This document shows positions 2,486 to 21,558 of a stretch of DNA of 24,000 nt, piece by piece (positions within the stretch are counted from its first letter, which is position 1; every line of letters begins with the position of its first letter). The DNA is taken from positions 3,606-27,605 of the forward strand of contig JAZPZL010000045.1 of assembly GCA_045544655.1 (NCBI GenBank). Reading direction: 5' to 3'. Under the pieces are notes generated by a model. That model did no database searches and was not told the origin of the DNA. It saw only the letters and a list, made by a program, of their open reading frames with translations. The translations under genes were made by a program, and so were the position numbers. The stretch is from Eubacteriales bacterium (GTDB lineage: Bacteria > Bacillota > Clostridia > Oscillospirales > SIG627).

Positions 2486-2509
2486 GTTCTTTCTTTTCAA
2501 AGAAAGAAC
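2486..2509 (+). promoter_or_regulatory. Leader hairpin upstream of metallophosphoesterase copy 1; function unknown
   Basis: Perfect 9-bp stem gttctttct / agaaagaac with loop tttcaa. It ends 16 nt before the AAGGAG RBS (2526-2531). No T-run follows, so it is not a canonical terminator. It is conserved base-for-base in the second unit. Confidence 0.4.
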
Positions 2510-2537
2510 GAAAAACGGAAAATACAAGGAGTTTTTT

Positions 2538-3869
2538 ATGCGTAAGATCGCCTCAATTTTGTTGGCATTTTGTTTGATGGCAGGGCTTTTGCCCGTATCG
2601 GCGGCGGAGTATACCTTTGCCGAGCCCATCGAGCAGGATAAGTGGAAGGATCCGGAGTTTTCCACGGACCACGCCTATTCCATTGCCTTCGTGGGCGATC
2701 CTCAGTTTATCAACAACAGCGACGTCAATTTCGGGGAAAAGAAAATGGAGCAGCTGTTCGGGGTCATTGCCGACACCGCCGAGGAGCGGAAGCTGAAGCA
2801 CGTATTCGTTTTGGGTGACATTACCCACGCAGGCTACCGCAACGACTCCAATCTTGCCTTCGCGCACAACTCCCCCCCCATTACTTCGGAATGGGAGAAC
2901 GCCCAAAAGTCCATTTTGCAGTTGAGTGACGCGGGCATTTCCTACTCTCTTTGCCGCGGCAATCACGACGACTATATGATGGACGATTACTTTAACGTCC
3001 ATGCCTACACCGATCAGTTCAAGGACTGCGGCGGATTTTTCAGCGATTCCGAGGCCAAGTATACCAAGGCGCGCGAGCCGAAGAATCCCGATAATTACGT
3101 TTATTGGAGTGCGACCACCGGCTACCACAAGGAGTCCATCGTCAATTCCTACAAGACGGCGGAGATCTGCGGAAACAAGTACATTTTTATTACCGTGGAC
3201 TTTAATCCCACGATGAAGGTGGTGAAATGGCTGAACGGGATCCTGGAGGAATACTCCGATCACATGGCGATCGTCACCACCCACGCCTATATCAATAAGC
3301 TTGGCAAGCATCTGACCTACAACGACGGCACCATGTACGATCACGGCGTTGCCGCTCCTCAGCTTTGGGAGTCTTGTCTCAAGCTCCACGAAAATCTTCT
3401 GATGGTGGTCTGCGGCCACGTGGGATCCATCAAGCCCGTGGTGTCTGCCCGCAAGGGAGTCAACGGAAACACGGTGCGCGAGATCCTGATCAATCCCCAG
3501 AATTACGATCTGAACCGTGAGTCGGGCGGTGGTGTTCAGGATACGGGCGCGGTTGTGTATATGAACTTCTCCGAGGACGGAGGAAAGGTGACCTTCGACC
3601 ATTACTCCACCCTGATGAATAAGGAGTATGCCCACGAAAATTATCCCATGACCCTTTACAAGGAGAAGCCCTTGTTCCTCGAGGAACAGGAGGTAGATGC
3701 CAAGGTGGAGGAGGAAAAGAAGCCCGATCCCGTTCCTTCCGCTTCTACCGAGCCTCAGCTTCAGGGACAGAGCGGCATCGGAGCGGTGATCGCCGTGATC
3801 GCAGGTGCCCCGGCAGTTGCCGCCGTTGCCGTGGTGATCGTCGTGGTAAGGAAGAAAAAGAAGAAATAG
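2538..3869 (+). CDS. Secreted, C-terminally membrane-anchored calcineurin-like metallophosphoesterase (paralog 1)
   Basis: 443 aa. Signal peptide MRKIASILLAFCLMAGLLPVSA/AEY with an AXA-type cleavage site. Metallophosphoesterase motif series: VGDPQ, VLGDITH, RGNHDD, VTTHAY, CGHVG. The C-terminus has a hydrophobic helix (GIGAVIAVIAGAPAVAAVAVVIVVV) followed by RKKKKK. AAGGAG RBS lies 6-12 nt upstream. Confidence 0.85.
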   Translation: MRKIASILLAFCLMAGLLPVSAAEYTFAEPIEQDKWKDPEFSTDHAYSIAFVGDPQFINNSDVNFGEKKMEQLFGVIADTAEERKLKHVFVLGDITHAGYRNDSNLAFAHNSPPITSEWENAQKSILQLSDAGISYSLCRGNHDDYMMDDYFNVHAYTDQFKDCGGFFSDSEAKYTKAREPKNPDNYVYWSATTGYHKESIVNSYKTAEICGNKYIFITVDFNPTMKVVKWLNGILEEYSDHMAIVTTHAYINKLGKHLTYNDGTMYDHGVAAPQLWESCLKLHENLLMVVCGHVGSIKPVVSARKGVNGNTVREILINPQNYDLNRESGGGVQDTGAVVYMNFSEDGGKVTFDHYSTLMNKEYAHENYPMTLYKEKPLFLEEQEVDAKVEEEKKPDPVPSASTEPQLQGQSGIGAVIAVIAGAPAVAAVAVVIVVVRKKKKK

Positions 3870-3875
3870 GATGCA

Positions 3876-3944
3876 GGGCTTTGCCCCGCACCCCACAAGG
3901 AGCTTTTTGAAAAAAGCTCCTTGACCTGAAAAACTTATTAAGGG
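3876..3944 (+). repeat. Interspersed intergenic repeat, copy 2
   Basis: Nearly identical to copy 1. Here the core is a perfect 26-nt palindrome, aaggagctttttgaaaaaagctcctt (3897-3922). Confidence 0.8.
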
Positions 3945-3955
3945 AAGTTTCTTTG

Positions 3956-3979
3956 GTTCTTTCTTTTCAAAGAAAGAAC
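3956..3979 (+). promoter_or_regulatory. Leader hairpin upstream of metallophosphoesterase copy 2
   Basis: Same 9-bp stem and 6-nt loop as 2486-2509, offset by exactly 1470 bp. Confidence 0.4.
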
Positions 3980-4007
3980 GAAAAACGGAAAATACAAGGA
4001 GATTTTT

Positions 4008-5339
4008 ATGCGTAAGATCGCTTCAGTTTTGTTGGCTCTTTGCCTGATGGCAGGGCTTTTGCCCGTATCGGCGGCGGAGTATGTCTACGGCGAGCCGATG
4101 GAGCCGGAGCTTTGGATGGAGCCTGACTTTTCCACGGATCACGCCTATTCCATCGCTCTGGTGGGGGATACCCAGTGCCTGAGCCGCTGTGACATTCAGG
4201 ACGGAACGAAGGCTATGGAGCAGCTGTACGGTGTCATTGCCGATACCGCCAAGGAGCGGAAGCTGAAGCACGTATTCGTTTTGGGCGATATTACGGATAT
4301 GAGCTACCGCAACGACAGGAATCTGGGTTACGCCATTTTTCAACAGCCTATGACCTTGGAATGGGAAAATGCTCAGAAGGCGATCCTGCAAATGAGCGAG
4401 GCGGGCATTTCTTATTCGCTCGTTCGCGGCAACCACGACGACTATATGATGGACGATTATTTCAATATCCCCGCCTACACCGATCAGTTCAAGGACTGCG
4501 GCGGCTTTTTCAGTGATTCCGCCGCTAAGCATTCGGGGGGAGAGGAACCCCGCAATCCCGAAAATTACGTATACTGGAGCGCCAAGACGGGTTACCACGA
4601 AAAATCCATCGTGAATTCTTATAAGACTATGGAGATCTGCGGGACCAAATATCTGTTTGTGACCGTGGATCACCACCTGACCATGAACGTTATTAACTGG
4701 GTGGATGAGACCCTGGCAAAATACCCCGATCATCTTGCCATCGTAGCCACCCACGCCTATATCGGCTCGGAGGGAAATCTGTTTTCCACCACCGAAGGAG
4801 ATACCCATCTGCCCAACGGACTTGCGGCGGAGCAGCTGTGGGAATTTGCTTTGAAAAAGCACGAAAACGTGCTGGCGGTGGTGTGCGGACACGTGGGAAC
4901 CCTTCGCCCCGTTTATTCCACGATGCGGCGCGGGATCCACGGAAACGTGGTGCGCCAGATCCTGGTGGATCCGCAGAATTACGATTACCGTGATGCCTAC
5001 GGCTCCGTAACCGGCGTTCAGCCCACGGGAATGGTTTTGTATATGAACTTTTCCGAAAACGGCGGAAAGGTGACCTTCGATTATTACTCTACCATTTTGG
5101 ATAAGGAAATGGTGGATGCGGATTATCCCCTGACCCTTTACAAGGAAAATCCCGTTGCGGATAAAAAGGCGATGGAGACCGTAGCCGACGCACAAAAGGA
5201 TCCCGTTCCCACCGCCTCCACCGAGCCTCAGCTTCAGGGACAGAGCGGCATCGGAGCGGTGATCGCTGTGATCGCAGGTGCCTCGGCAGTTGCCGCCATT
5301 GCCGTGGTGATCGTCGCGGTAAGGAAGAAAAAGAAATAG
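4008..5339 (+). CDS. Secreted, C-terminally membrane-anchored calcineurin-like metallophosphoesterase (paralog 2)
   Basis: 443 aa, roughly two-thirds identical to paralog 1 by eye. Motifs: VGDTQ, VLGDITD, RGNHDD, VATHAY, CGHVG. Signal peptide and C-terminal anchor (GIGAVIAVIAGASAVAAIAVVIVAVRKKKK) are nearly identical to paralog 1. Confidence 0.85.
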   Translation: MRKIASVLLALCLMAGLLPVSAAEYVYGEPMEPELWMEPDFSTDHAYSIALVGDTQCLSRCDIQDGTKAMEQLYGVIADTAKERKLKHVFVLGDITDMSYRNDRNLGYAIFQQPMTLEWENAQKAILQMSEAGISYSLVRGNHDDYMMDDYFNIPAYTDQFKDCGGFFSDSAAKHSGGEEPRNPENYVYWSAKTGYHEKSIVNSYKTMEICGTKYLFVTVDHHLTMNVINWVDETLAKYPDHLAIVATHAYIGSEGNLFSTTEGDTHLPNGLAAEQLWEFALKKHENVLAVVCGHVGTLRPVYSTMRRGIHGNVVRQILVDPQNYDYRDAYGSVTGVQPTGMVLYMNFSENGGKVTFDYYSTILDKEMVDADYPLTLYKENPVADKKAMETVADAQKDPVPTASTEPQLQGQSGIGAVIAVIAGASAVAAIAVVIVAVRKKKK

Positions 5340-5344
5340 GATCC

Positions 5345-5390
5345 GCAAAACCTTTTTTTGAAAAAAAGGTTCTGCACTCCAAAAAACTTC
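5345..5390 (+). repeat. Interspersed intergenic repeat, variant B copy
   Basis: Sequence gcaaaacctttttttgaaaaaaaggttctgcactccaaaaaacttc. The reverse complement of 22556-22597 is almost identical, differing only in homopolymer lengths. Confidence 0.8.
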
Positions 5391-5412
5391 ACTCGAAAAA
5401 AACGAAAAAAAG

Positions 5413-5443
5413 GATCCCCGCAGAAAGGATTTCCGTGGGGATC
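5413..5443. terminator. Bidirectional rho-independent terminator between convergent genes
   Basis: Stem gatccccgc / gtggggatc with one G-U pair. It is flanked by an A-run (5404-5411) on one side and tttctttt (5444-5451) on the other. That places a U-tract after the hairpin on both strands. It lies between the stop of the metallophosphoesterase gene (5339) and the stop of the FHA-TIR-kinase gene (5450). Confidence 0.7.
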
Positions 5444-5449
5444 TTTCTT

Positions 5450-7423
5450 TTATGATTTGGATAGCTTATCAATGAGCTGAAGCACGATCTCCTTGGAGGT
5501 GGGGTCCAGAGAGATCAGCTTTGCCATAGCATCTGCCAGACGCGGGTCTACGTTTGCCGCCGGCTTCTGTGGTTTCATCGGAACGACGGGACCTTGACCG
5601 GGTACGGCGAAACCGCTCTTCGGTGGGACGGCAGGACCTTGACCGGGTACGGCAAATCCGCTTTTCGGCGGGACAGCAGGGATCTTCCCGGGTACGGGGA
5701 AGGAGTCCTTGCTTTTTTTTGTTTTTTTCGGTGTGCGGACCTTGAAGAAGGGCTTTTTCACCAGGTGATCGACGTTTTCCAGATCCTTCAGAAGCTCCTC
5801 TGCTGATTGATAACGTGCCTCGGGATCCTTTTGGGTACATTTTTTGATGATATACTCAAGTCCCGTGGAAAGGGAGGGATCCACTTCCCGAATAGGCAGG
5901 ATCTCGTAGGGAGGCTCGGCGGGGTTTTTCCCCGTAACCAGATGGTAGAGGGTAACGCCCAGACTGTAGAGGTCCGTTCTGGCATCCGTCTGACCCATAC
6001 CGCCGTATTGCTCCGGTGCGGCGTAGCCTCGCGTTCCCAGACAGGTGGTATCGGCGGCGGCGCTTTTCTTGTATTCGCGGGCGGTGCCGAAATCAAGGAT
6101 CTTGATGCTTCCGCCGGGCTGAAGCATAATATTGGCAGGCTTTATATCTCGGTGGATGATGGGAGCGGGACGGGAATGCAGGTAATCGAGAACGTGACAA
6201 ATCTGCTTTGCGATGTCCAGGGTCTGATGTTCGGCAAGAACCATCCCCTCATCCAAAAACTGCTGCAGACTTTTTCCTTCCACGTATTCCATAATCAGAA
6301 GAATGGTCTCCGGCTTTTTGATTATGTCGATGAAGACGGGGATGGCAGGGTGATTGAGGCTTCGGACAATGGAAATTTCGGACAGGAAGGACTCCCAGAC
6401 GATATTGAAATTTTTGGTTTTTTCCTTCAGGATTTCCTTGATTGCCCAGTGCTTATTCGTGGTAAGGTTTTCCGCCAGAAAGACGGTGGAAAAGCCGCCT
6501 TGCCCGATTTTTTTCAAAATGCGGTATTTTCCATCCAAAACGGAGTCAATCTGTAAACGCGTGCCGTCAGATACGGGAGAAGGGGACGATTCCTTTTCTC
6601 CCCCTGAGAGGATGGTGGTTTCATTACCGCCGGATTTATGCTTATAGAGATAAGTGGTATCGTCACCCTTCTGACGGAAGGAGGTGGCTCCGCTCAAGAT
6701 ACCTCCCACGAAACGGATCAGCGCTTCCTCATTGTCGTAGGACTGGAGGGGAGCCAGATTGGCAGGCAGGTCGTTTACGGGAAAATCCTTGGAGCGGTAG
6801 GTGACGATGGTGCGGGTCTTTCTTCCCTCTCTCAGCCACAGATTGCTGAACATTTCAATTTCGTATGAAACCCAGTCGGAGGTGATGTTTGCGCGATTGG
6901 TTCCCACGGCAATAAAGACCTTCGCCTGCTCGAGGGCGGTGGCGATGATGGTCATATAATTGGATCTGCCGCTTGCATCCACGGAGTATTTACTGAAAAA
7001 GGGATTGTACCCCTTGGCGCGAAGGGCGTGGTACAAGGACTCTGCCATTTTCACGTCCCGTCCGGGGAATCCGTTTTCCTCCGTATTGCGGAAGGAAATG
7101 AAAATATCGTACTTTTGCGTTACGTCACCGCACGCTTTTTGAAAAGAAAGTTTTTGATTGCCGACGGTGATCTCATCCTTGAATTGCAAGGGATGCTCTG
7201 TGTTTGGGGGGATGGGAGTTCCGTTTAAGAAGGTGCCGTTGGTGGAATTCAGATCGGACAGGTAATAGCGATCTTCCTTGCAAGTGATCCTACAGTGAGC
7301 GCGGCTGACCGCAGGGGAGGAGAGCATCAGGTCTACGAAATTCTGCGCGGTCCCGATGGTAAAAAAGGGCTTGTCGATCAGCGTGATCTGATTCGTTTGA
7401 AGATTCTGTAATTGCGCCGCCAT
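5450..7423 (-). CDS. FHA domain / TIR-like domain / Hanks-type Ser/Thr protein kinase fusion protein with a Pro-rich repeat tail (cytoplasmic; no TM segment seen)
   Basis: 657 aa.
- aa 17-94 (7142-7375): canonical FHA (FTIG ... VSRAHCRI ... YYLSDLNSTNGTFLNG ... ITVGN).
- aa 104-230 (6734-7114): TIR-like (YDIFISFR ... AESLYHALRAKGYNPFFS ... AKVFIAVGT ... SDWVSYEIEMF ... TIVTY).
- aa 299-550 (5774-6529): complete kinase core. G-loop is IGQGGFSTV, VAIK Lys is in WAIKE, then HRDIKPANIML, DFGTA and APEQ.
- aa 576-617: PAVPPKSGFAVPGQG repeats.
- GAAGGTGA RBS lies 7 nt upstream of the ATG. Confidence 0.9.
   Translation of the reverse strand: MAAQLQNLQTNQITLIDKPFFTIGTAQNFVDLMLSSPAVSRAHCRITCKEDRYYLSDLNSTNGTFLNGTPIPPNTEHPLQFKDEITVGNQKLSFQKACGDVTQKYDIFISFRNTEENGFPGRDVKMAESLYHALRAKGYNPFFSKYSVDASGRSNYMTIIATALEQAKVFIAVGTNRANITSDWVSYEIEMFSNLWLREGRKTRTIVTYRSKDFPVNDLPANLAPLQSYDNEEALIRFVGGILSGATSFRQKGDDTTYLYKHKSGGNETTILSGGEKESSPSPVSDGTRLQIDSVLDGKYRILKKIGQGGFSTVFLAENLTTNKHWAIKEILKEKTKNFNIVWESFLSEISIVRSLNHPAIPVFIDIIKKPETILLIMEYVEGKSLQQFLDEGMVLAEHQTLDIAKQICHVLDYLHSRPAPIIHRDIKPANIMLQPGGSIKILDFGTAREYKKSAAADTTCLGTRGYAAPEQYGGMGQTDARTDLYSLGVTLYHLVTGKNPAEPPYEILPIREVDPSLSTGLEYIIKKCTQKDPEARYQSAEELLKDLENVDHLVKKPFFKVRTPKKTKKSKDSFPVPGKIPAVPPKSGFAVPGQGPAVPPKSGFAVPGQGPVVPMKPQKPAANVDPRLADAMAKLISLDPTSKEIVLQLIDKLSKS
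5589..5700 (-). repeat. 45-bp in-frame tandem repeat (about 2.5 copies) encoding PAVPPKSGFAVPGQG
   Basis: ggaccttgaccgggtacggc starts at 5589 and again at 5634, giving a 45-nt period. A degenerate third copy starts near 5679. It lies within the C-terminal tail of the FHA-TIR-kinase ORF. Confidence 0.9.
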
Positions 7424-7450
7424 ATTCTTTCACCTTCTTTCTTTCTCATC

Positions 7451-7479
7451 ATTATACCGATCTTGGCGGAAAATGTCAA
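7451..7479 (-). promoter_or_regulatory. Consensus sigma-A promoter of the FHA-TIR-kinase gene
   Basis: On the minus strand: TTGACA (7479-7474), exactly 17 nt, TATAAT (7456-7451). The -10 lies about 28 nt upstream of the ATG at 7423. Confidence 0.7.
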
Positions 7480-7531
7480 ATGCTTGAATTTGTCTTGCGA
7501 AAATTTTTGTGATGTGTTTCTATAACGTGAA

Positions 7532-7554
7532 AGAGAACGGAGGATCCGTTCTCT
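7532..7554 (-). terminator. Hairpin immediately downstream of tyrS; probable operon terminator
   Basis: 9-bp stem agagaacgg / ccgttctct with loop aggat, 9 nt after the tyrS stop. The better T-tract (ctctttttgctttta) is on the plus-strand side, and the minus-strand tail is only UUUCACGUU. Efficiency and orientation are therefore uncertain. Confidence 0.45.
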
Positions 7555-7562
7555 TTTTGCTT

Positions 7563-8783
7563 TTATTTGGTAATTTTGATAAAGACCTTTTTGCCCTTGC
7601 GCAGGATGAATTCCGCGTCGAAGTCGGAGGCGGGGAAGGTGGTGCCGATGTCGGTGACCTTCTCATCCTTTGCGGTTACGCCGCCCTGCTGAATGAGTCT
7701 GCGCGCTTCGCCGCGGGAGGGGCAAAGCCCGGTCTTCACCAGAAGGTCCATAATATTGATGGCGCCGTCGGTGAAATCTGCGTCGGTCAGGGTGTGGGTG
7801 GGCATATTGGCGTTGTTACCGCCGCCGCCGAAGAGGGCGCGAGCCGCTTCCTGCGCCTTGTCAGCCTCCTCCTTGCCGTGAACCAGGGTGGTCAATTCGT
7901 ATGCCAGGATCTCCTTTGCACGGTTCAGCTGACTGCCTTCCCAGGCGTCCATCTTGTCGATCTCCTCCAGAGGCAGGAAGGTGAGCATACGGATGCACTT
8001 AAGCACGTCGGCATCGCCCACGTTTCTCCAATACTGGTAGAAGTCGAAGGGGCTGGTCTTTTCGGGGTCCAGCCAAACGGCACCGCTCTGGGTCTTACCC
8101 ATTTTCTTGCCCTCGGAGTTGAGGAGCAGGGTAATGGTCATAGCGTATGCGTCCTTGCCGGTCTTTTTGCGGATCAATTCCGTACCGCCCAGCATATTGG
8201 ACCACTGGTCGTCGCCGCCGAACTGCATATTACAGCCGTATTTCTCGGACAGGTGATAGAAGTCGTAGGACTGCATGATCATATAGTTGAATTCCAGGAA
8301 GGACAGACCCTTCTCCATTCTTTGCTTGTAGCACTCGGCGCGAAGCATATTGTTGACGGAGAAGCAGGCGCCGACCTCGCGGAGAAGATCCACGTACTTC
8401 AGATCCAGAAGCCAGTCTGCATTGTTTACCAGGATCGCCTTGTCCTCACCAAAGTCGATGAAGCGCTCCATCTGGCGCTTGAAGCAATCGCAGTTGTGCT
8501 GAATGGTCTCGGGAGTCATCATGGAACGCATATCGGTTCTGCCGGAGGGGTCCCCGATGTAGCCGGTACCGCCGCCCACCAAAACTACGGGCTTGTTGCC
8601 CGCCATCTGCAAACGCTTCATCAGGCACAGCGCCATAAAGTGACCGCAGTGGAGAGAATCTGCCGTGGGGTCAAAGCCGATATAGAAGCGGGCGCCGCCG
8701 TTGTTGATCAATTCTCGGATCTCTTTTTCATCCGTTACCTGCGCGATGAGTCCGCGCGCTTGAAGTTCTTCGTAAATTCCCAT
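7563..8783 (-). CDS. tyrS: Tyrosine--tRNA ligase
   Basis: 406 aa. N-terminus LQARGLIAQVTDEKEIRELIN ... YIGFDPTADSLHCGH (HIGH-type motif). KMGKT is the KMSKS-type motif. C-terminal S4-like domain (SRGEARRLIQQGGV). Confidence 0.93.
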   Translation of the reverse strand: MGIYEELQARGLIAQVTDEKEIRELINNGGARFYIGFDPTADSLHCGHFMALCLMKRLQMAGNKPVVLVGGGTGYIGDPSGRTDMRSMMTPETIQHNCDCFKRQMERFIDFGEDKAILVNNADWLLDLKYVDLLREVGACFSVNNMLRAECYKQRMEKGLSFLEFNYMIMQSYDFYHLSEKYGCNMQFGGDDQWSNMLGGTELIRKKTGKDAYAMTITLLLNSEGKKMGKTQSGAVWLDPEKTSPFDFYQYWRNVGDADVLKCIRMLTFLPLEEIDKMDAWEGSQLNRAKEILAYELTTLVHGKEEADKAQEAARALFGGGGNNANMPTHTLTDADFTDGAINIMDLLVKTGLCPSRGEARRLIQQGGVTAKDEKVTDIGTTFPASDFDAEFILRKGKKVFIKITK

Positions 8784-8797
8784 GGTAAAGCCTTTCT

Positions 8798-10507
8798 TTA
8801 TCTTAATGTATCTTTTAATTTTTCAAATTCCGCAAGACCCTCCCGACGGAGCTTATCTGCGGCGCTTCTTGCTTCCTCGGAAAGCTCTCTGCCTCCCAGA
8901 AGCCTTGCGTTTTCCTTCAGACTGCCTTCCCCGTCCAGGGGCGTAAGACCCGTTTGCGTTCTGCCCTCCGCTTCCGTTTTTTCTACCAGGAAGTGGTGGT
9001 CTGCCAGGGTGGAGACCTGAGCGGAATGGGTCACGCAGAAGATCTGCCGATCCCGTGCAAGACAGCGCAGACAAATGCCGATCTTCTGTGCAGTCGCACC
9101 GGAAATGCCCGTGTCGATCTCGTCAAAGATCATAGTGGGCGCATCTTTCTCCTTGAGAAGCTTTAAGGAAAGAGCCAGCATAATACGGCTCATTTCACCG
9201 CCGGATGCCACCTGTGCCAGGGGCCCCGTGCCTTCACCGGTGTTGGCGGCAATGCCGAAGGAAACCCGTTCGCCGCCCTCGGGTGAAAAGCCGTCCTCGG
9301 GGGTGAAAAGCACGGAGAAGCGCATTTTGGGCATATCCAAAAAGGCAAGGGTGCCGTGGATCTCCCCTTCCAGAGCCTCAGCCGTTTTTTTGCGGGCAAG
9401 GGTCAAAGCGGAGGCGGCAGCCTCCAGCTTGCGGGAAAGGCTTGCCAAAGCAAGCTCACTCTTTTTTATATCATCTTTTCCCCGCAGAGTCAAGTCCTTT
9501 TTCTCTTTTATCTCTTCGTAATAGTCCAGGATCTCGTCAACGGACTTGCCGAATTTCTGCTTCAAGCGGTAGAGGGCGTCCATCCGCTTCTGAATGCGGT
9601 CCATCAGATCCCCCGGGTCCTCCTCGCCGTAATCGGAAAGGGCGGCGGAGAGGCTGTTTTCCAATTCCTTGGCGCTTTCCGCCAATTCGTACAGCTTTCC
9701 CGCGGTCTCGGCGTGATTCCCTTCTCCCAATTCCTCCAGCTTCCGCGCGGCGGCAGACAGGAGAAAGACGGCTCCCTTTCCCTTTTCCCCGCCGGAAAGG
9801 GCGCGATGGGCAGTGGCAACGGCACCGTATTCCTTTTCAAAATTCTGCAGGTGACGAAGCTTTTCCTCCAGCTTATCCTCCTCGCCCCGCTTAGGCTTTA
9901 CGCGGGCGATCTCCTGCATCTGATATTCGTAAAGGGCAAGCTTTTCCTTGCCGTCCAAAACGTCCTCGCGAAGCTTTTCCAAGGCTTTTTTCGCCGTCTG
10001 ATGCTCAGCAAAGGCAGCTTTGTACGCTTTAAGGGCATTTTGACCCTCTTGATCCAGCGCGTCGTCCAGATACCTTCTGTGATTTTTTTCGTCCAGAAGT
10101 CCCACGGCACTGTTTTGCCCGTGAATGGCAAGCAGCTCCGAGGCAAGGGCGGAAAGGCGGCTGAAGGGAAGGGTCCTGCCGCAAAGCTTGGACAGATTCT
10201 TTCCCGTGGCGTATACGATGCGGGTGAGGGTCACGCCCTCCCGCGCCTCCTCGGGATCCACCAGTTCAGACAGAGATGCGATCTGCTCCTCGGTCAGGTC
10301 GGTGAAAAACAGGGAGACCTCCAGCTTTTCTTCTCCGTGGCGCACCAATTCCTTTCCCCCCTTGGAGGACAGGAACAGACCCAGAGAATCCAGAATCAGG
10401 GATTTACCTGCGCCCGTTTCACCGGTCAGCACGGAAAAGCCCCGATGGAAATCCACCGAAAGGCGTCGGATCAGTGCAAGATCGGAAACAAACAGGCTGG
10501 TCAGCAT
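8798..10507 (-). CDS. recN: DNA repair protein RecN
   Basis: 569 aa. N-terminal SMC-like head with Walker A (FSVLTGETGAGKSLILDSL). Long coiled-coil middle. C-terminal signature and Walker B (ASGGEMSRIMLAL ... TMIFDEIDTGISG). Confidence 0.93.
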   Translation of the reverse strand: MLTSLFVSDLALIRRLSVDFHRGFSVLTGETGAGKSLILDSLGLFLSSKGGKELVRHGEEKLEVSLFFTDLTEEQIASLSELVDPEEAREGVTLTRIVYATGKNLSKLCGRTLPFSRLSALASELLAIHGQNSAVGLLDEKNHRRYLDDALDQEGQNALKAYKAAFAEHQTAKKALEKLREDVLDGKEKLALYEYQMQEIARVKPKRGEEDKLEEKLRHLQNFEKEYGAVATAHRALSGGEKGKGAVFLLSAAARKLEELGEGNHAETAGKLYELAESAKELENSLSAALSDYGEEDPGDLMDRIQKRMDALYRLKQKFGKSVDEILDYYEEIKEKKDLTLRGKDDIKKSELALASLSRKLEAAASALTLARKKTAEALEGEIHGTLAFLDMPKMRFSVLFTPEDGFSPEGGERVSFGIAANTGEGTGPLAQVASGGEMSRIMLALSLKLLKEKDAPTMIFDEIDTGISGATAQKIGICLRCLARDRQIFCVTHSAQVSTLADHHFLVEKTEAEGRTQTGLTPLDGEGSLKENARLLGGRELSEEARSAADKLRREGLAEFEKLKDTLR

Positions 10508-19584: not shown

Positions 19585-19810
19585 TAAAGAGGGAGAGGTG
19601 CGGGAGGCAGGTTGCCTCCCCTACGTCAAAACGGGACGTCGAAGGGGAGCGATGGGAGCGCCGCGGAGCGGGAGAAGCGACTTGAGCGAGTGGCAGCGGT
19701 CAGCAGATGCCGAGGAGCACAGTCGACGAAGGCAGATGGTGGGCACCGCAACAGGACTGCCGTCCCCTACGGTACACCCGTAATTTTGAGCGGACAAAGC
19801 GGGGCTCAAA
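19585..19810. other. Unassigned GC-rich, hairpin-dense non-coding block (candidate structured RNA; strand unknown)
   Basis: No credible ORF on either strand. Contains a perfect 8-bp hairpin gggaggca-ggt-tgcctccc (19602-19620). It overlaps an alternative nested helix, ctcccct-acgtc ... gacgt-cga-aggggag (19616-19649). There are five GAGCG motifs within 19648-19690, a helix gacg..gcag / ctgccgtc (19724-19764), and a 7-bp stem tttgagc / gctcaaa (19785-19810). It lies between the ddl terminator and the serC promoter. Confidence 0.2.
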
Positions 19811-19847
19811 GAGAAAAAGCGTTCCCCTTTTTTTCTTTTTCCTTGAT

Positions 19848-19904
19848 GGAAGTTTTTGCCAAGCTTTTTTCAAAAAGCGGCAAAAGTCCCCTGCAAAGAG
19901 TCCC
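19848..19904 (-). repeat. Interspersed intergenic repeat, reverse-oriented copy
   Basis: The reverse complement reads gggactctttgcaggggacttttgccgctttttgaaaaaagcttggcaaaaacttcc. It has the same head, CTTTTTGAAAAAAG core and AAAAACTT tail as the other copies. Confidence 0.65.
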
Positions 19905-19939
19905 TACAAAAGAACAAACCGTCTGCGGTGCAGACGGTT
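19905..19939 (-). terminator. Rho-independent terminator of ddl
   Basis: 9-bp stem aaccgtctg / cagacggtt (19917-19939) with a 5-nt loop. On the minus strand it is followed by UGUUCUUUUGU. It begins 8 nt after the ddl stop codon. Confidence 0.75.
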
Positions 19940-19947
19940 TGGGCTTA

Positions 19948-20874
19948 TTACTCCAATGCAAGATCCACCAGGGTCTCGCAAAGCTCGGGGAAGGCGATGC
20001 CTGCGGCGCGGGCGGCATCGGGGAAGAGACTGGTTTCGGTCATTCCCGGGGAGGTGTTGATCTCAATCACGAAGGGATCGCCCTTTTCATCCAGCATCAT
20101 ATCCACGCGGGCAAGACCGCGGCAACCGGTTTCCGCATAAGCCTTGGCGGCGATTGCCTTCACCTTTTTCTCCACCTCGGGAGAAATGCGGGCAGGAATG
20201 ATGTGGCGGCTTCCGCCGGGGGTGTACTTGGACTCATAATCGTAGAATTTGCCGCTGGAGGTGATCTCAATGGGAGGAAGCACCAGCAGCTTGTCATTGC
20301 CCATTACGGGTACGGTCAGCTCTGTGCCGGAGAGGAATTTTTCCGCCAGAACCTGATCCCCGTAGGTGAACAGCTCCTTGAGGATCTCTTCTGCGCCTTC
20401 CCGTTCCCGGAGGATGGCAACGCCGATGCTGCTGCCCTGACAGTTTGCTTTCAGCACCAGGGGCAGACCCAGCACCCGAATGGCGTTTCCAACTGCCTCT
20501 TTGGGGTCGGCATCGGGGGAAATACACAGAAATTGCGGGGTGGGGACACCGGAAAGGGTCAGCACCTTTTTGGTCATCATCTTATCCAGACAAAGGGCGC
20601 TTGCCAGAGTTCCGGGGCCGGTATAGGGGATCCCCATCCATTCCAGAAGCCCTTGCACCGTACCGTCCTCTCCGCCCTTGCCGTGGAGGGCAATGAAGGC
20701 GCAGTCGGGAGCAAATTCGGTGATTTGGTTCAGGGTTTTGCGGGTCAGATCCAGCTCCACCACGTTTTCAAAACGCTGACGAAGGGCTTGGGCAACGGCT
20801 TTTCCGCTTCTCAGGGAAACCTCCCGTTCGGTGCTTTCACCACCCATCAGCACAAGGATTTTTTCAGTTCTCAT
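19948..20874 (-). CDS. ddl: D-alanine--D-alanine ligase
   Basis: 308 aa. KILVLMGGESTEREVSLRSGKAV, FIALHGKGGEDGTVQGLLEWMGIPYTG, ATP-grasp body, and C-terminal EINTSPGMTETSLFP. Confidence 0.92.
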   Translation of the reverse strand: MRTEKILVLMGGESTEREVSLRSGKAVAQALRQRFENVVELDLTRKTLNQITEFAPDCAFIALHGKGGEDGTVQGLLEWMGIPYTGPGTLASALCLDKMMTKKVLTLSGVPTPQFLCISPDADPKEAVGNAIRVLGLPLVLKANCQGSSIGVAILREREGAEEILKELFTYGDQVLAEKFLSGTELTVPVMGNDKLLVLPPIEITSSGKFYDYESKYTPGGSRHIIPARISPEVEKKVKAIAAKAYAETGCRGLARVDMMLDEKGDPFVIEINTSPGMTETSLFPDAARAAGIAFPELCETLVDLALE

Positions 20875-20922
20875 AGCGTTCCTCGATTCGTTTTTTTCTA
20901 TTATATATATGCGTTGTTTGGA

Positions 20923-21558
20923 TCAGATGCCACCCAGAGGCGGTAAGGTATCGCGACGCGCACGGTAGACCTGGGGGAAGAAGTCCCGCAGAAATGCGGT
21001 GAAGGCAGTTACCGCGCGGCGGATAAAGTGATCCACCACCTCATCGGTAAAGACCTCCGATTCGGGAAGTGCCTCCTCGGTGTGCCAGTGGAAATTAAAC
21101 TCCAGGAATTTGTGGATCTCCTCTTCGGGCAGACCCATACTGTTTTCGTACAATTTGGGATCGGGCTTGTGGAGACGGGTCCAAAGCTCCCTAGACCAAG
21201 GCATTCTCTGGGCGGTGCGGCTCCCTGCACGGGAAAGCTCCTTGCGGTAATCCACGAACCAATTCTCGGGACCGTGGGATTTGCGGTGTGCCATTTGGGG
21301 TCCGTTGTCCCACAGATAGTCCAGGTAAAAATGGCAGAGGGCGCCGAAATCAAAGTCCCGAGTCAGATCCAGACCCTTGCCGAAGCGGATCAGGCTTTGG
21401 AGCCGCTCTTCGGGGGGAACGTCGCGGAAGTGGAGCTTGTCCTTGATCTCCCGATACGCGTCCACGCAGTCGGGGAGAATGGAGCCGAGAAAGTAGGAAT
21501 CGCTGCCTGCGGGATCCAGCAGGTGGGCGGCGTACAGATGCATCATGGTTGCAGGCAT
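20923..21558 (-). CDS. Hypothetical protein; possibly a His/Asp metal-dependent hydrolase of the Zn-phospholipase-C-like type (weak)
   Basis: 211-aa ORF with coding-like composition, packed 8 nt after queT. The N-terminal MPATMMHLYAAH ... ILPDC ... HFYLDYLWD pattern is reminiscent of Zn-dependent PLC-like domains. I cannot confirm the family. Confidence 0.6.
   Translation of the reverse strand: MPATMMHLYAAHLLDPAGSDSYFLGSILPDCVDAYREIKDKLHFRDVPPEERLQSLIRFGKGLDLTRDFDFGALCHFYLDYLWDNGPQMAHRKSHGPENWFVDYRKELSRAGSRTAQRMPWSRELWTRLHKPDPKLYENSMGLPEEEIHKFLEFNFHWHTEEALPESEVFTDEVVDHFIRRAVTAFTAFLRDFFPQVYRARRDTLPPLGGI

What the first reader, a model, noticed from the sequence alone, without database searches (positions are those of the whole stretch)
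6734..7114. The TIR-like module keeps the catalytic-type W-x-x-x-E motif but has no partner effector gene nearby
- Within the TIR-like segment, the motif S-D-W-V-S-Y-E (Glu188, codon 6860-6862) aligns with the S.W...E element. In NADase-active TIR domains (SARM1, AbTir, ThsB) that element carries the catalytic glutamate.
- Flanking elements fit a TIR layout: beta-A DIFISF, an amphipathic alpha-A AESLYHALRAKGY, beta-B NPFFS, and AKVFIAVGT before the W..E helix.
- Thoeris-type systems need a separate receiver for the TIR-made nucleotide signal (a ThsA SIR2/SLOG or Macro protein). None is present. The neighbours are tyrS on one side and a convergent secreted phosphoesterase on the other.
- If the domain is active, it would have to act directly by NAD+ depletion, or its output is read elsewhere in the genome.
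- An alternative reading is a nucleoside 2-deoxyribosyltransferase-like or other flavodoxin-like fold.
Basis: partly seen in the sequence, partly recalled or inferred. Interest (0 to 1): 0.7.

Follow-up and report, generated by a model that had tools for sequence, protein, structure and literature searches.

The report
TIR NADase domain inside a kinase
The flagged segment is a real TIR domain with an intact NAD-cleaving active site, but it is the middle domain of a single FHA–TIR–protein kinase gene, so its likely regulator is built in and a neighbouring partner gene need not be expected.

Summary
Window 6734-7114 (- strand) encodes a genuine TIR domain (Pfam TIR_2 above threshold). The AlphaFold model has pLDDT 85, and its best structural matches are SARM1, SPARTA, RPP1 and TIR-STING. 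Glu188 aligns with SARM1 Glu642 and ROQ1 Glu86, Trp184 with Trp638, and Ser110 with Ser567. Glu188 is invariant in 48/48 family members and in 149/149 TIR segments from the 150 best-scoring representatives listed by the exhaustive search. No SIR2, SLOG or Macro gene lies in the 24-kb window, which is housekeeping.

The 'missing partner' framing needs changing. The TIR is residues ~103-245 of a monocistronic 657-aa protein: FHA, TIR, Hanks Ser/Thr kinase, proline-rich repeat, C-terminal helical hairpin. About 50 TIR–kinase relatives exist in Oscillospirales/Clostridia metagenome genomes. They have or lack the FHA domain, and one carries it at the C-terminus. Ten loci share no conserved neighbour.

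The same TIR clade is fused elsewhere to methyltransferase, STAND-NTPase, LRR and membrane modules, which is typical of an effector domain. My best reading, which is inferred and not shown, is a self-contained NAD+-cleaving effector controlled in cis by the kinase/FHA module.

The nucleoside-deoxyribosyltransferase alternative is rejected. I rate this a new variant of a known kind, of moderate interest.

The parts
7451..7479 (-). Promoter-like site TTGACA-17-TATAAT (12/12 consensus matches), about 28 nt upstream of the ATG at 7423 and preceded by the RBS-like AAGAAGGTGAAAG
   Evidence: the only 12/12 site in 5200-7700; sequence
5450..7423 (-). Whole gene: 657-aa FHA-TIR-Ser/Thr kinase protein, monocistronic
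7133..7423 (-). FHA domain (residues 1-97). S40-R-x-H43 and N59-S-T-N-G-T64 are kept. The canonical 'GR' Arg is Thr25.
   Evidence: Pfam FHA E 1.2e-18; alignment of FHA-bearing relatives; pLDDT 81-95
6689..7117 (-). TIR domain (residues ~103-245), five-strand flavodoxin-like fold
   Evidence: Pfam TIR_2 35 bits against cut-off 28; AlphaFold pLDDT 84.6; Foldseek top hits SARM1, TIR-1, SPARTA, RPP1 and TIR-STING
7085..7108 (-). Strand-A box D106-I-F-I-S110-F-R-N113, matching SARM1 D-V-F-I-S567-Y-R-R. The Ser110 codon is 7094-7096.
   Evidence: hhalign; F108 and I109 48/48, S110 47/48 in the family; S110 139/149 in the wider clade
6860..6874 (-). W184-V-S-Y-E188, the WxxxE catalytic motif at the start of helix C. 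The Glu188 codon is 6860-6862.
6962..6985 (-). BB-loop region (residues 147-154, SVDASGRS) with Gly152. Low model confidence suggests it is flexible.
   Evidence: pLDDT below 50 for 147-154; G152 31/49 in the family and 121/149 in the clade
6644..6688 (-). Conserved post-TIR beta-hairpin A-[ST]-G-F-R-x-x-G-x-x-T256-x-x-L-Y260. This is a candidate phospho-site or FHA-docking site (inference only).
   Evidence: F249, T256 and Y260 at least 90% conserved in A3; column counts; strands 248-252 and 255-259
5756..6556 (-). Hanks-type Ser/Thr kinase domain (residues ~290-556) with all catalytic residues: G307xGG, K329, H424-R-D426, K428, N431, D444-F-G, activation-loop D458-T-T-C-L-G-T464, A468-A-P-E471
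   Evidence: Pfam Pkinase E 2.6e-56; these residues are invariant in 49 relatives, except that H424 is Tyr in most and T459/T460 are not invariant (T459 46/49)
5558..5755 (-). Disordered Pro-rich tail (residues 557-622). It contains a 45-bp tandem repeat at 5588-5701 (2.5 copies) encoding the unit AVPPKSGFAVPGQGP.
   Evidence: copy number differs among orthologues
5456..5545 (-). C-terminal helical hairpin (residues 627-656) ending ...LISLDPTSKEIVLQLIDKLSKS. Conserved in about 35 of 49 family members; function unknown.
5344..5376 (-). Terminator-like hairpin (15 pairs) followed by a T-rich tail, downstream of the stop codon

Best explanation
The segment is a catalytically intact SARM1-like TIR NAD+-glycohydrolase domain. 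It serves as the output (effector) module of a self-contained, single-gene signalling protein, FHA-TIR-Hanks kinase.

Proposed mechanism:
- The active kinase autophosphorylates on Thr, in the activation loop (T459/T460) and possibly at the conserved linker Thr256.
- Phosphorylation then controls the TIR in one of two ways. FHA-phosphothreonine contacts could bring TIR domains together into the oligomer that TIR NADases need for activity. Alternatively, phosphorylation could act directly near the active site.
- The assembled TIR cleaves NAD+, causing growth arrest or abortive infection, possibly with release of ADPR-type products.
- No separate receiver gene is required.

Shown here: domain identities, intact catalytic residues of both enzymes, family-wide conservation, the monocistronic unit, and the absence of any conserved neighbour.

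Inferred: NADase activity itself, the direction of the phospho-control, the trigger, and the biological role (phage defence versus a stress or dormancy switch).
For: TIR identity:
- Pfam TIR_2 scores above its gathering cut-off.
- The family profile hits only TIR structures in the PDB at significant E-values.
- The AlphaFold model has pLDDT 84.6, and its top 22 Foldseek hits are SARM1/TIR-1 and SPARTA, with RPP1, TIR-STING, RPPT, SNC1 and RUN1 TIRs further down.

Active site:
- E188 pairs with SARM1 E642, W184 with W638 and S110 with S567. E188 also pairs with ROQ1 chain position 86.
- E188 is invariant in 48/48 family members and 149/149 TIR segments of the wider clade. Scaffold-only TIRs have no known need for this Glu.

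Cis partners:
- FHA and Pkinase lie in the same ORF.
- Kinase catalytic residues are invariant in 49 relatives.
- FHA is N-terminal in two subclades and C-terminal in P0013. This domain shuffling points to a functional link.

Stand-alone status:
- The gene has a perfect promoter and its own terminator.
- Ten TIR-kinase loci share no neighbour family beyond close relatives.
- The 72 neighbour ORFs are mostly housekeeping, and no SIR2, SLOG or Macro family appears among the 25 most frequent families returned by each library.

Effector-like behaviour of the clade: the same TIR is N-terminal in 117/149 of those segments. It is fused to methyltransferase, nSTAND1+TPR, LRR_5, DUF6273, RCC1/TPR and membrane anchors.

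Precedents:
- SpbK is a single-gene Firmicute TIR NADase with no partner effector (10.1101/2024.12.23.630042).
- Phosphorylation of the Ser equivalent to S110 blocks TIR NADase activity in plants and in SARM1 (10.1101/2025.04.09.647920).
Against: - There is no biochemical evidence that this or any member of the clade cleaves NAD+.
- The gene lies among core housekeeping genes (tyrS, recN, argR, nadK, spo0A), not in a defence island.
- The TIR has no tblastn match in the phage or plasmid collections. A defence role is therefore unsupported by context.
- The FHA 'GR' arginine is Thr25 in this protein and its closest orthologues, so phosphothreonine binding may be weakened.
- Most TIR-kinase relatives lack FHA altogether.
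- The full-length AlphaFold pTM is 0.45, so no inter-domain arrangement is predicted.
- Ser110 is equally conserved in clade members without a kinase. Its conservation therefore says nothing about regulation.
- The rest of the genome could not be searched for a receiver.
Confidence: 0.55

Rival explanations
1. Signal generator read in trans. The TIR makes a cyclic-ADPR-type or ADPR-conjugate nucleotide that is sensed by a receptor (SIR2/SLOG, Macro or other) encoded elsewhere in the genome. This would be a dispersed Thoeris-like pathway, with the kinase/FHA module acting as the infection or stress sensor.
For: The active site is intact. Weak partial matches to PADLOC ThsB models (best E 2.8e-5, covering only residues 61-98) and to NCBIfam Thoeris type III ThcB4 (E 0.003) exist. 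Only 24 kb of the genome is available, so a distant receiver cannot be excluded.
Against: No recurrent neighbour family was found in 10 loci, and SIR2, SLOG or Macro do not appear among the 25 most frequent neighbour families in each library. Known Thoeris systems keep thsA and thsB adjacent (established knowledge). Here the TIR is fused to other domains and is not free-standing. The ThsB model matches are far below full-length membership.
Confidence: 0.15
2. Kinase is the output and the TIR is the assembly domain. TIR-TIR oligomerisation, possibly promoted by FHA, brings kinase domains together for trans-autophosphorylation, and the phosphorylated substrates carry the signal. This would be a bacterial analogue of TIR-adaptor to IRAK signalling or of plant TIR-kinases. 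NAD+ cleavage would be secondary or absent.
For: All kinase catalytic residues and the activation-loop Thr are invariant. The kinase domain is 57-60% identical to an abundant family of TIR-less Clostridial kinases (P0056-P0121; N-termini), so the TIR looks like an added regulatory module. TIR domains are classical oligomerisation scaffolds (PMC7075850).
Against: The catalytic Glu, Trp and Ser are conserved without exception in 149/149, 145/149 and 139/149 TIR segments of the clade. That is hard to explain for a pure scaffold. The same TIR clade is attached to non-kinase partners, where it is the only plausible enzyme. The two models are not mutually exclusive.
Confidence: 0.2
3. Not a TIR. The segment would be a nucleoside 2-deoxyribosyltransferase/DNPH1-like or other flavodoxin-like fold acting on nucleotides other than NAD+.
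For: BcmB CMP N-glycosidase, DNPH1 and 2'-deoxyribosyltransferases appear among the Foldseek hits (from rank 23 on, E 4e-4 to 2e-3).
Against: They rank below more than 20 TIR structures. Pfam TIR_2 passes its cut-off and no NDT family is reported. The profile search of the PDB finds only TIRs at E below 0.05. The box-1 and WxxxE motifs match SARM1 residue for residue.
Confidence: 0.03

Closest known systems
SARM1 / TIR-1 TIR domain (NAD+ hydrolase)
   Same: It is the best structural match (Foldseek E 2.7e-6 to 1e-5). The box-1 motif is the same (DIFISFRN against DVFISYRR), as is the helix-C motif (DWVSYEI against DWVHKEI). E188 pairs with E642, W184 with W638 and S110 with S567. In both proteins the TIR is one domain of a multidomain protein whose other domains regulate it.
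   Different: Sequence identity is only 17-19%. The partner domains are FHA and a Hanks kinase, not ARM and SAM. SARM1 D594 corresponds to Ser144 here. No activity data exist for this protein.
SpbK of ICEBs1 (Bacillus subtilis): a single-gene TIR NADase abortive-infection protein
   Same: It is a Firmicute TIR protein that works without a partner effector gene. A non-TIR region senses the trigger, and the TIR depletes NAD+ (10.1101/2024.12.23.630042).
   Different: In SpbK the TIR is C-terminal and the gene sits on a mobile element. Here the TIR is internal, flanked by FHA and kinase, and the gene is in a housekeeping neighbourhood. Homology to SpbK was not tested here.
Thoeris ThsB
   Same: Both are bacterial TIR_2-type domains with the catalytic Glu. 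Weak partial hits to ThsB HMMs were found.
   Different: ThsB is a free-standing protein encoded next to ThsA. Here there is no ThsA-like gene, the TIR is fused, and the HMM matches cover only about 40 residues.
Phospho-regulated TIRs (plant SNC1/RBA1 by CPK3; SARM1 by CAMK2D/TBK1)
   Same: The Ser next to the catalytic Glu (SNC1 S26, SARM1 S567) is present as Ser110. In those systems its phosphorylation switches the NADase off (10.1101/2025.04.09.647920).
   Different: There the kinase is a separate protein. Here a kinase is fused in cis. Nothing shows that Ser110 is a substrate.
Mycobacterial PknB-type kinase / FHA partnerships (GarA, FhaA, Rv1747)
   Same: A Hanks kinase with an activation-loop T-x-T-type site is combined with an FHA phosphothreonine reader. 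The best NCBIfam kinase match is PknB_PASTA_kin, E 2e-66 and far below its cut-off.
   Different: There are no PASTA or transmembrane segments. FHA and kinase are in one chain, with a TIR between them. The FHA 'GR' Arg is replaced by Thr25.
Kinase-based phage-defence proteins (PD-T4-6, Stk2, MADS MAD6)
   Same: There are strong HMM matches over the kinase domain (E 1e-63 to 1e-69).
   Different: The matches are confined to the generic kinase core (residues ~291-572). None of those models includes a TIR or FHA, and the NCBIfam MAD6 score of 165 is far below its cut-off of 460. This is resemblance, not membership.

Membership tests
TIR domain superfamily (Pfam TIR_2, clan CL0173) | Profile match above the curated threshold | tested here: met
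   TIR_2 scores 35.0 bits against a cut-off of 28 over residues 107-230. TIR_2 is also the precomputed hit in nearly all relatives.
TIR domain superfamily (Pfam TIR_2, clan CL0173) | Flavodoxin-like alternating strand/helix fold that superposes on solved TIR domains | tested here: met
   AlphaFold pLDDT 84.6, pTM 0.82. Foldseek gives 35 PDB hits at E <= 1e-3, and all but two (BcmB) are TIR-domain structures.
NADase-active TIR domains (SARM1, AbTir, plant TIRs, SPARTA) | Catalytic glutamate at the start of helix C, in register | tested here: met
   E188 pairs with SARM1 E642 and with ROQ1 chain position 86 and the RUN1 SRWCLDEL Glu. It is invariant in 48/48 and 149/149 sequences.
NADase-active TIR domains (SARM1, AbTir, plant TIRs, SPARTA) | Trp of the WxxxE motif and the box-1 Ser adjacent to the Glu | tested here: met
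   W184 pairs with W638 and S110 with S567. They are conserved in 145/149 and 139/149 sequences.
NADase-active TIR domains (SARM1, AbTir, plant TIRs, SPARTA) | BB-loop with a conserved Gly able to complete a neighbouring active site | tested here: inconclusive
   G152 is present (121/149 in the clade). The loop alignment to SARM1 G601 is gapped and the loop is modelled with pLDDT below 50.
NADase-active TIR domains (SARM1, AbTir, plant TIRs, SPARTA) | Measured NAD+ cleavage that depends on the Glu | not testable with these tools
   Needs enzyme assays.
Thoeris (ThsB + ThsA) | ThsA-type receiver/effector (SIR2-SLOG, Macro or TM) encoded next to the TIR gene | tested here: not met
   None is present in the 24-kb window. 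None appears among the 25 most frequent Pfam or PADLOC families of the 72 neighbour ORFs from 8 other loci.
Thoeris (ThsB + ThsA) | Full-length match to ThsB models; free-standing TIR protein | tested here: not met
   The best PADLOC ThsB hit is E 2.8e-5 and covers only residues 61-98 of the segment. The TIR is internal to a 657-aa protein.
Hanks-type Ser/Thr protein kinase | Gly-rich loop, VAIK Lys, HRD Asp, DFG and APE all present | tested here: met
   Pkinase E 2.6e-56. G307xGG, K329, R425-D426, K428, N431, D444-F-G and APE are invariant in 49 relatives.
FHA phosphothreonine-binding domain | Profile match plus the five canonical residues G-R ... S-x-x-H ... N | tested here: inconclusive
   Pfam FHA E 1.2e-18. 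S40, H43, N62 and G24 are present, but the Arg is Thr25. It is Lys in P0007 and Arg in the P0020 clade.
PD-T4-6 / MADS MAD6 kinase defence proteins | Score at the equivalog level over the whole protein | tested here: not met
   NCBIfam MAD6 scores 164.9 bits against a cut-off of 460. The PADLOC hits cover only the kinase core.

The most novel reading that the evidence does not exclude
A hard-wired 'phospho-gated' TIR NADase. The fused Hanks kinase would control the TIR in cis. It could do so by phosphorylating Ser110, the residue whose phosphorylation by separate kinases shuts off plant TIRs and SARM1. Alternatively, it could create phosphothreonine sites that the FHA domain uses to polymerise the protein and switch the NADase on.

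This would be a bacterial single-chain version of kinase-TIR cross-talk, which is so far known only between separate proteins in plants and animals. It would also be a possible evolutionary precedent for the TIR-to-kinase wiring of Toll/IL-1 pathways.
Probability: 0.2. Interest if true: 0.75.

Novelty: new variant of a known kind. Interest (0 to 1): 0.5.

Why it matters
TIR NADases are central to immunity and cell-death decisions in bacteria, plants and animals. How they are held in check is an active question. A natural fusion of an intact TIR with an intact Ser/Thr kinase and a phosphothreonine reader gives a compact bacterial model for testing whether phosphorylation directly gates TIR activity or assembly.

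The finding also shows that 'orphan' TIR genes in gut Clostridia should be read by their fused domains, not by looking for Thoeris partners. The wider clade has thousands of representatives, all keeping the catalytic Glu among those examined. It is fused to methyltransferases, NLR-like NTPases and membrane anchors, and it is essentially uncharacterised.

Four full-text searches of the paper library found no description of a bacterial TIR-kinase fusion.

Tried and rejected
- **Word-indexed homologue search with the TIR alone:** it found only one hit. The exhaustive search was needed, and it gave 4690 representatives.
- **Single-sequence PDB search:** it gave only a spurious interferon hit. The family profile was needed.
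- **The search for related loci with the 35-sequence alignment:** it failed because the alignment was too diverse. A 10-sequence alignment worked.
- **Exact look-up of the window protein's contig:** nothing was on record. Cluster look-up gave no names or accessions, so the organism is inferred only as Oscillospirales-like from relatives.
- **Third protein search with the profile:** it returned mostly short fragments and added little.
- **Full-length AlphaFold model:** it gave no confident inter-domain packing (pTM 0.45), and coordinates cannot be inspected. The Glu geometry was therefore judged by alignment to SARM1 and ROQ1, not by measuring the pocket.
- **Linkage to the neighbouring Metallophos genes:** considered and rejected. 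The same arrangement recurs next to the 71% orthologue, but both window paralogues carry signal peptides and C-terminal anchors, and more distant relatives lack this arrangement.
- **Linkage to nadK two genes away:** considered and rejected. It belongs to the recN-argR-nadK-tlyA-dxs-xseA block, a gene order I recall as conserved in Firmicutes (e.g. Bacillus subtilis). This was not tested here.
- **Kinase-defence family membership (PD-T4-6, MAD6, Stk2):** considered and rejected. The matches cover the kinase core only.
Full report
**1. What is at the coordinates**

The finding lies inside one long ORF on the minus strand, 5450-7423, encoding 657 aa. Codon 6862-6860 is GAA = Glu188, within S182-D-W-V-S-Y-E188. 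The range 6734-7114 corresponds to residues 104-230.

Pfam places three domains on the protein:
- FHA, residues 22-88, E 1.2e-18.
- TIR_2, residues 107-230, E 2.3e-8, 35.0 bits against a gathering cut-off of 28.
- Pkinase, residues 300-546, E 2.6e-56.

The 'TIR-like module' is therefore the middle domain of an FHA-TIR-Ser/Thr kinase protein.

**2. Is it a TIR, and is the Glu the catalytic one?**

A single-sequence search of the PDB was uninformative. A profile of 35 relatives (A1) hit only TIR structures at meaningful E-values: RPV1, RUN1, AT1G72930, ROQ1 and L6. In every alignment the family's invariant Glu sits on the Glu of the plant S-x-W-C-L-x-E-L motif. In ROQ1 that is chain position 86, which from established knowledge is the catalytic residue.

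The AlphaFold2 model of residues 98-262 is confident (pLDDT 84.6, pTM 0.82). Foldseek against the PDB puts SARM1 and C. elegans TIR-1 first (E 2.7e-6 to 1e-5). These are followed by SPARTA TIR-APAZ, RPP1, TIR-STING, RPPT, SNC1 and RUN1. BcmB, DNPH1 and 2'-deoxyribosyltransferases appear only from rank 23 on, at E about 4e-4 and weaker.

The alignment pairs:
- E188 with E642.
- W184 with W638.
- Ser110 of the box D-I-F-I-S-F-R-N with S567 of D-V-F-I-S-Y-R-R.

I could not inspect model coordinates.

**3. Conservation**

A full-length search found the identical protein on a 27.8-kb NCBI contig. It also found about 50 cluster representatives that combine TIR_2 with Pkinase. Orthologues at 85, 75, 71 and 54% identity keep FHA-TIR-kinase. 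A second FHA-bearing clade lies at 40-43% identity. Many relatives at 45-50% identity start directly with the TIR.

In 49 aligned family members:
- F108, I109, E188 and F192 are present in all 48 aligned rows.
- S110 is present in 47/48.
- W184 is present in 46/48.

The exhaustive HMMER search with the TIR alone found 4690 representatives at E <= 1e-3 and 869 at E <= 1e-10. In 149 TIR segments taken from the best 150 of these:
- The Glu is present in 149/149.
- The Trp is present in 145.
- The Ser is present in 139.
- The box-1 Lys/Arg is present in 142.
- The BB-loop Gly is present in 121.
- The TIR is N-terminal in 117/149.

W-x-x-x-E alone could arise by chance. This degree of in-register invariance could not.

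**4. The rest of the protein**

Kinase catalytic residues are all present and are invariant across the family: G307xGG, K329, R425-D426, K428, N431, D444-F-G, T464 and A-P-E. An activation-loop Thr, T459, is kept in 46/49. The kinase should therefore be active.

The FHA keeps S40, H43 and the N-x-x-N-G-T stretch. The canonical 'GR' arginine, however, is Thr25 in this protein and its nearest orthologues. It is Lys in P0007 and Arg in the P0020 clade.

A conserved beta-hairpin follows the TIR (A-S-G-F-R-x-x-G-x-x-T256-x-x-L-Y260). It carries a Thr with a hydrophobic residue at +3. That is the kind of site many FHA domains prefer (established knowledge), but the same motif is also present in relatives without FHA.

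The full-length AlphaFold model (pLDDT 76, pTM 0.45) gives these boundaries:
- FHA, 1-97.
- TIR, 103-245, plus the hairpin at 248-259.
- Disordered linker, 261-287.
- Kinase, 290-556.
- Disordered proline-rich tail, 557-622.
- Confident C-terminal helical hairpin, 627-656.

No inter-domain packing is predicted. The BB-loop (147-154) is of low confidence, as expected for a mobile loop.

**5. Transcription unit and surroundings**

A perfect TTGACA-17-TATAAT promoter lies at 7479-7451 (-). A hairpin terminator lies at 5376-5344 (-). With the RBS-like sequence before the ATG, the gene looks monocistronic.

The window's other genes are housekeeping: ComM-like, two paralogous secreted Metallophos proteins, tyrS, recN, argR, nadK, tlyA-like, dxs, xseA, a TsaD-like gene, a 2-hydroxyacid dehydrogenase, a class-V aminotransferase, QueT and spo0A. 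Two further ORFs (444 and 211 aa) have no Pfam match. No SIR2, SLOG or Macro domain is present.

**6. Do relatives have a partner?**

Contexts of relatives differ:
- P0011 lies near a TIR-Sel1 gene, a 1479-aa kinase-Card1-nuclease gene and a PP2C phosphatase.
- P0054 lies after an M41 peptidase gene and near the mraZ cell-division cluster.
- P0009 lies among ABC transporters and a recombinase.
- P0005, the 71% orthologue, keeps a convergent Metallophos gene downstream; its truncated upstream ORF was not identified.
- P0023 and P0013 are different again.

All-against-all BLAST of neighbours in ten loci found no family shared by more than two loci, and the shared ones came from closely related genomes.

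Scanning 72 neighbour ORFs against Pfam and PADLOC showed mostly housekeeping families. No family was present in more than two members, apart from mad8 in four, which are generic hits. No SIR2, SLOG or Macro appeared among the 25 most frequent families returned by each library. These ORFs were called by a crude longest-ORF rule.

The TIR has no tblastn match in the phage or plasmid collections.

The family is therefore stand-alone. The missing neighbour is a family trait, not a peculiarity of this locus.

**7. The TIR clade as a module**

A scan of GTDB species representatives returned 46 loci, mainly Clostridia and Bacilli metagenome genomes. The closest were Faecousia sp. and Acutalibacteraceae, so the window is probably from an Oscillospirales genome. 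This is an inference.

Only seven of these loci carry the kinase. The others fuse the same TIR to other modules:
- A SAM-methyltransferase, in a recurrent ~455-aa architecture.
- nSTAND1 plus TPR.
- BspA-type LRR.
- DUF6273.
- RCC1/TPR/Sel1.
- Coiled-coil or membrane anchors.
- Zn-ribbon-like N-termini.

A catalytic domain attached promiscuously to sensor-like partners is the pattern described for effector domains in bacterial conflict systems (PMC8195603).

**8. Mechanism**

The best-supported reading is that the TIR is the NAD+-cleaving output of a self-contained protein, and that the kinase/FHA module is its built-in control. No separate receiver is needed.

Precedents for partner-less TIR NADases are SARM1, SPARTA and TIR-STING (structures) and the Firmicute single-gene defence protein SpbK.

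A 2025 preprint reports that the Ser adjacent to the catalytic Glu (SNC1 S26, SARM1 S567) is required for activity. It also reports that phosphorylation of this Ser by CPK3, CAMK2D or TBK1 blocks the NADase. That residue is Ser110 here, and here a kinase is fused in cis. This makes phospho-gating an attractive hypothesis, but it is unproven. Ser110 is just as conserved in clade members that lack a kinase.

An alternative form of control is FHA-phosphothreonine-driven clustering of TIR domains. Both are inferences.

The rivals are:
- A trans-encoded receptor, which is not excluded because the rest of the genome is unavailable.
- A scaffold role for the TIR with the kinase as output, which fits poorly with the invariant Glu.
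- A non-TIR fold, which is rejected.

**9. Comparison with what is known, and novelty**

The segment is a member of the TIR superfamily and has every sequence hallmark of the NADase-active subset that could be tested. It is not a Thoeris ThsB: adjacency to ThsA and a full-length model match were tested and not met. The kinase resembles PD-T4-6 and MAD6 defence kinases only over the generic core.

Four full-text literature searches, and targeted reading of a TIR survey and an E. coli TIR-system survey, found no description of a bacterial TIR-kinase or FHA-TIR-kinase fusion. Plant TIR-kinase architectures are mentioned.

I rate it a new variant of a known kind. The components and the likely chemistry are familiar. 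The cis combination with a kinase and a phosphothreonine reader is undescribed and experimentally tractable.

The housekeeping context and the lack of any functional data keep the interest moderate (0.5).

Noticed in passing
window 5588-5701 (- strand coding; protein residues ~575-612): A 45-bp tandem repeat (2.5 copies, 82% matches) encodes the unit AVPPKSGFAVPGQGP in the disordered tail. Copy number varies among orthologues: 2 here, 3 in P0003 and about 5 in P0004. An F-A-[IV]-P-G-Q core recurs in distant family members (P0009, P0013, P0034). This suggests a short linear docking motif under copy-number variation.
   Followed up: partly
window 5456-5545 (protein residues 627-656): The extreme C-terminus, ...L-D-P-x-S-x-x-x-x-x-x-L-I-D-R/K-L-S-K, is a confidently predicted helical hairpin. 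It is conserved in about 35 of 49 TIR-kinase relatives and has no Pfam match. The remaining subfamily ends in a beta-rich domain instead.
   Followed up: partly
L054 713-4201; L002 188-988; L011 3763-7341; protein P0048: In the more distant TIR-kinase subfamily the gene sits directly after, or near, an unusual soluble 1160-1190-aa AAA_2 + AAA + Peptidase_M41 (FtsH-like) gene. One relative (P0048, 999 aa) fuses TIR-kinase to AAA_2/AAA domains. This may be a functional link between TIR-kinases and an AAA+ protease. It is absent from the window.
   Followed up: partly
L013, L014, L016, L018-L021, L024, L026, L027, L032, L034, L036, L037, L039-L041, L043 (genes starting near position 10000 in most): The same TIR clade, with the catalytic Glu kept, is fused to a SAM-dependent methyltransferase domain in a recurrent ~450-470-aa protein. 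It occurs across many gut Clostridia and Bacilli genomes. I found no description of this architecture.
   Followed up: partly
window 2538-3869 and 4008-5339 (+): Two tandem paralogous 443-aa calcineurin-like phosphoesterases are present. Each has a signal peptide and a C-terminal hydrophobic anchor ending in a Lys run. A similar gene is convergent to the 71% orthologue of the TIR gene (L052). The synteny is probably inherited rather than functional.
   Followed up: partly
window 7349-7351 (Thr25 codon) in the FHA domain: The canonical FHA 'GR' arginine that contacts the phosphate is Thr in this protein and its closest orthologues. It is Lys in P0007 and Arg in the P0020 clade. The FHA may therefore bind phosphothreonine weakly or differently.
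   Followed up: partly
protein P0013 (L054 4213-7236): This relative has two tandem TIR domains, then the kinase, a beta-rich domain and a C-terminal FHA. It shows that the same domain set is shuffled in order and number.
   Followed up: no
L001 600-5039 and neighbours: Next to the TIR-kinase P0011 lie a TIR-Sel1 protein, a 1479-aa protein combining a kinase domain with a Card1-like (CARF-associated) endonuclease domain, and a PP2C phosphatase. This looks like a signalling or defence cluster, unlike the window's context.
   Followed up: no
window 2500-7500: G+C content is somewhat lower (0.50-0.53) across the Metallophos and TIR-kinase genes than in the flanking housekeeping genes (0.54-0.59). 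This may hint at later acquisition of this block.
   Followed up: no
window 19612-20946 (+) and 20923-21558 (-): Two sizeable ORFs (444 and 211 aa) have no Pfam match at E <= 1e-5. Their reality and function were not examined.
   Followed up: no
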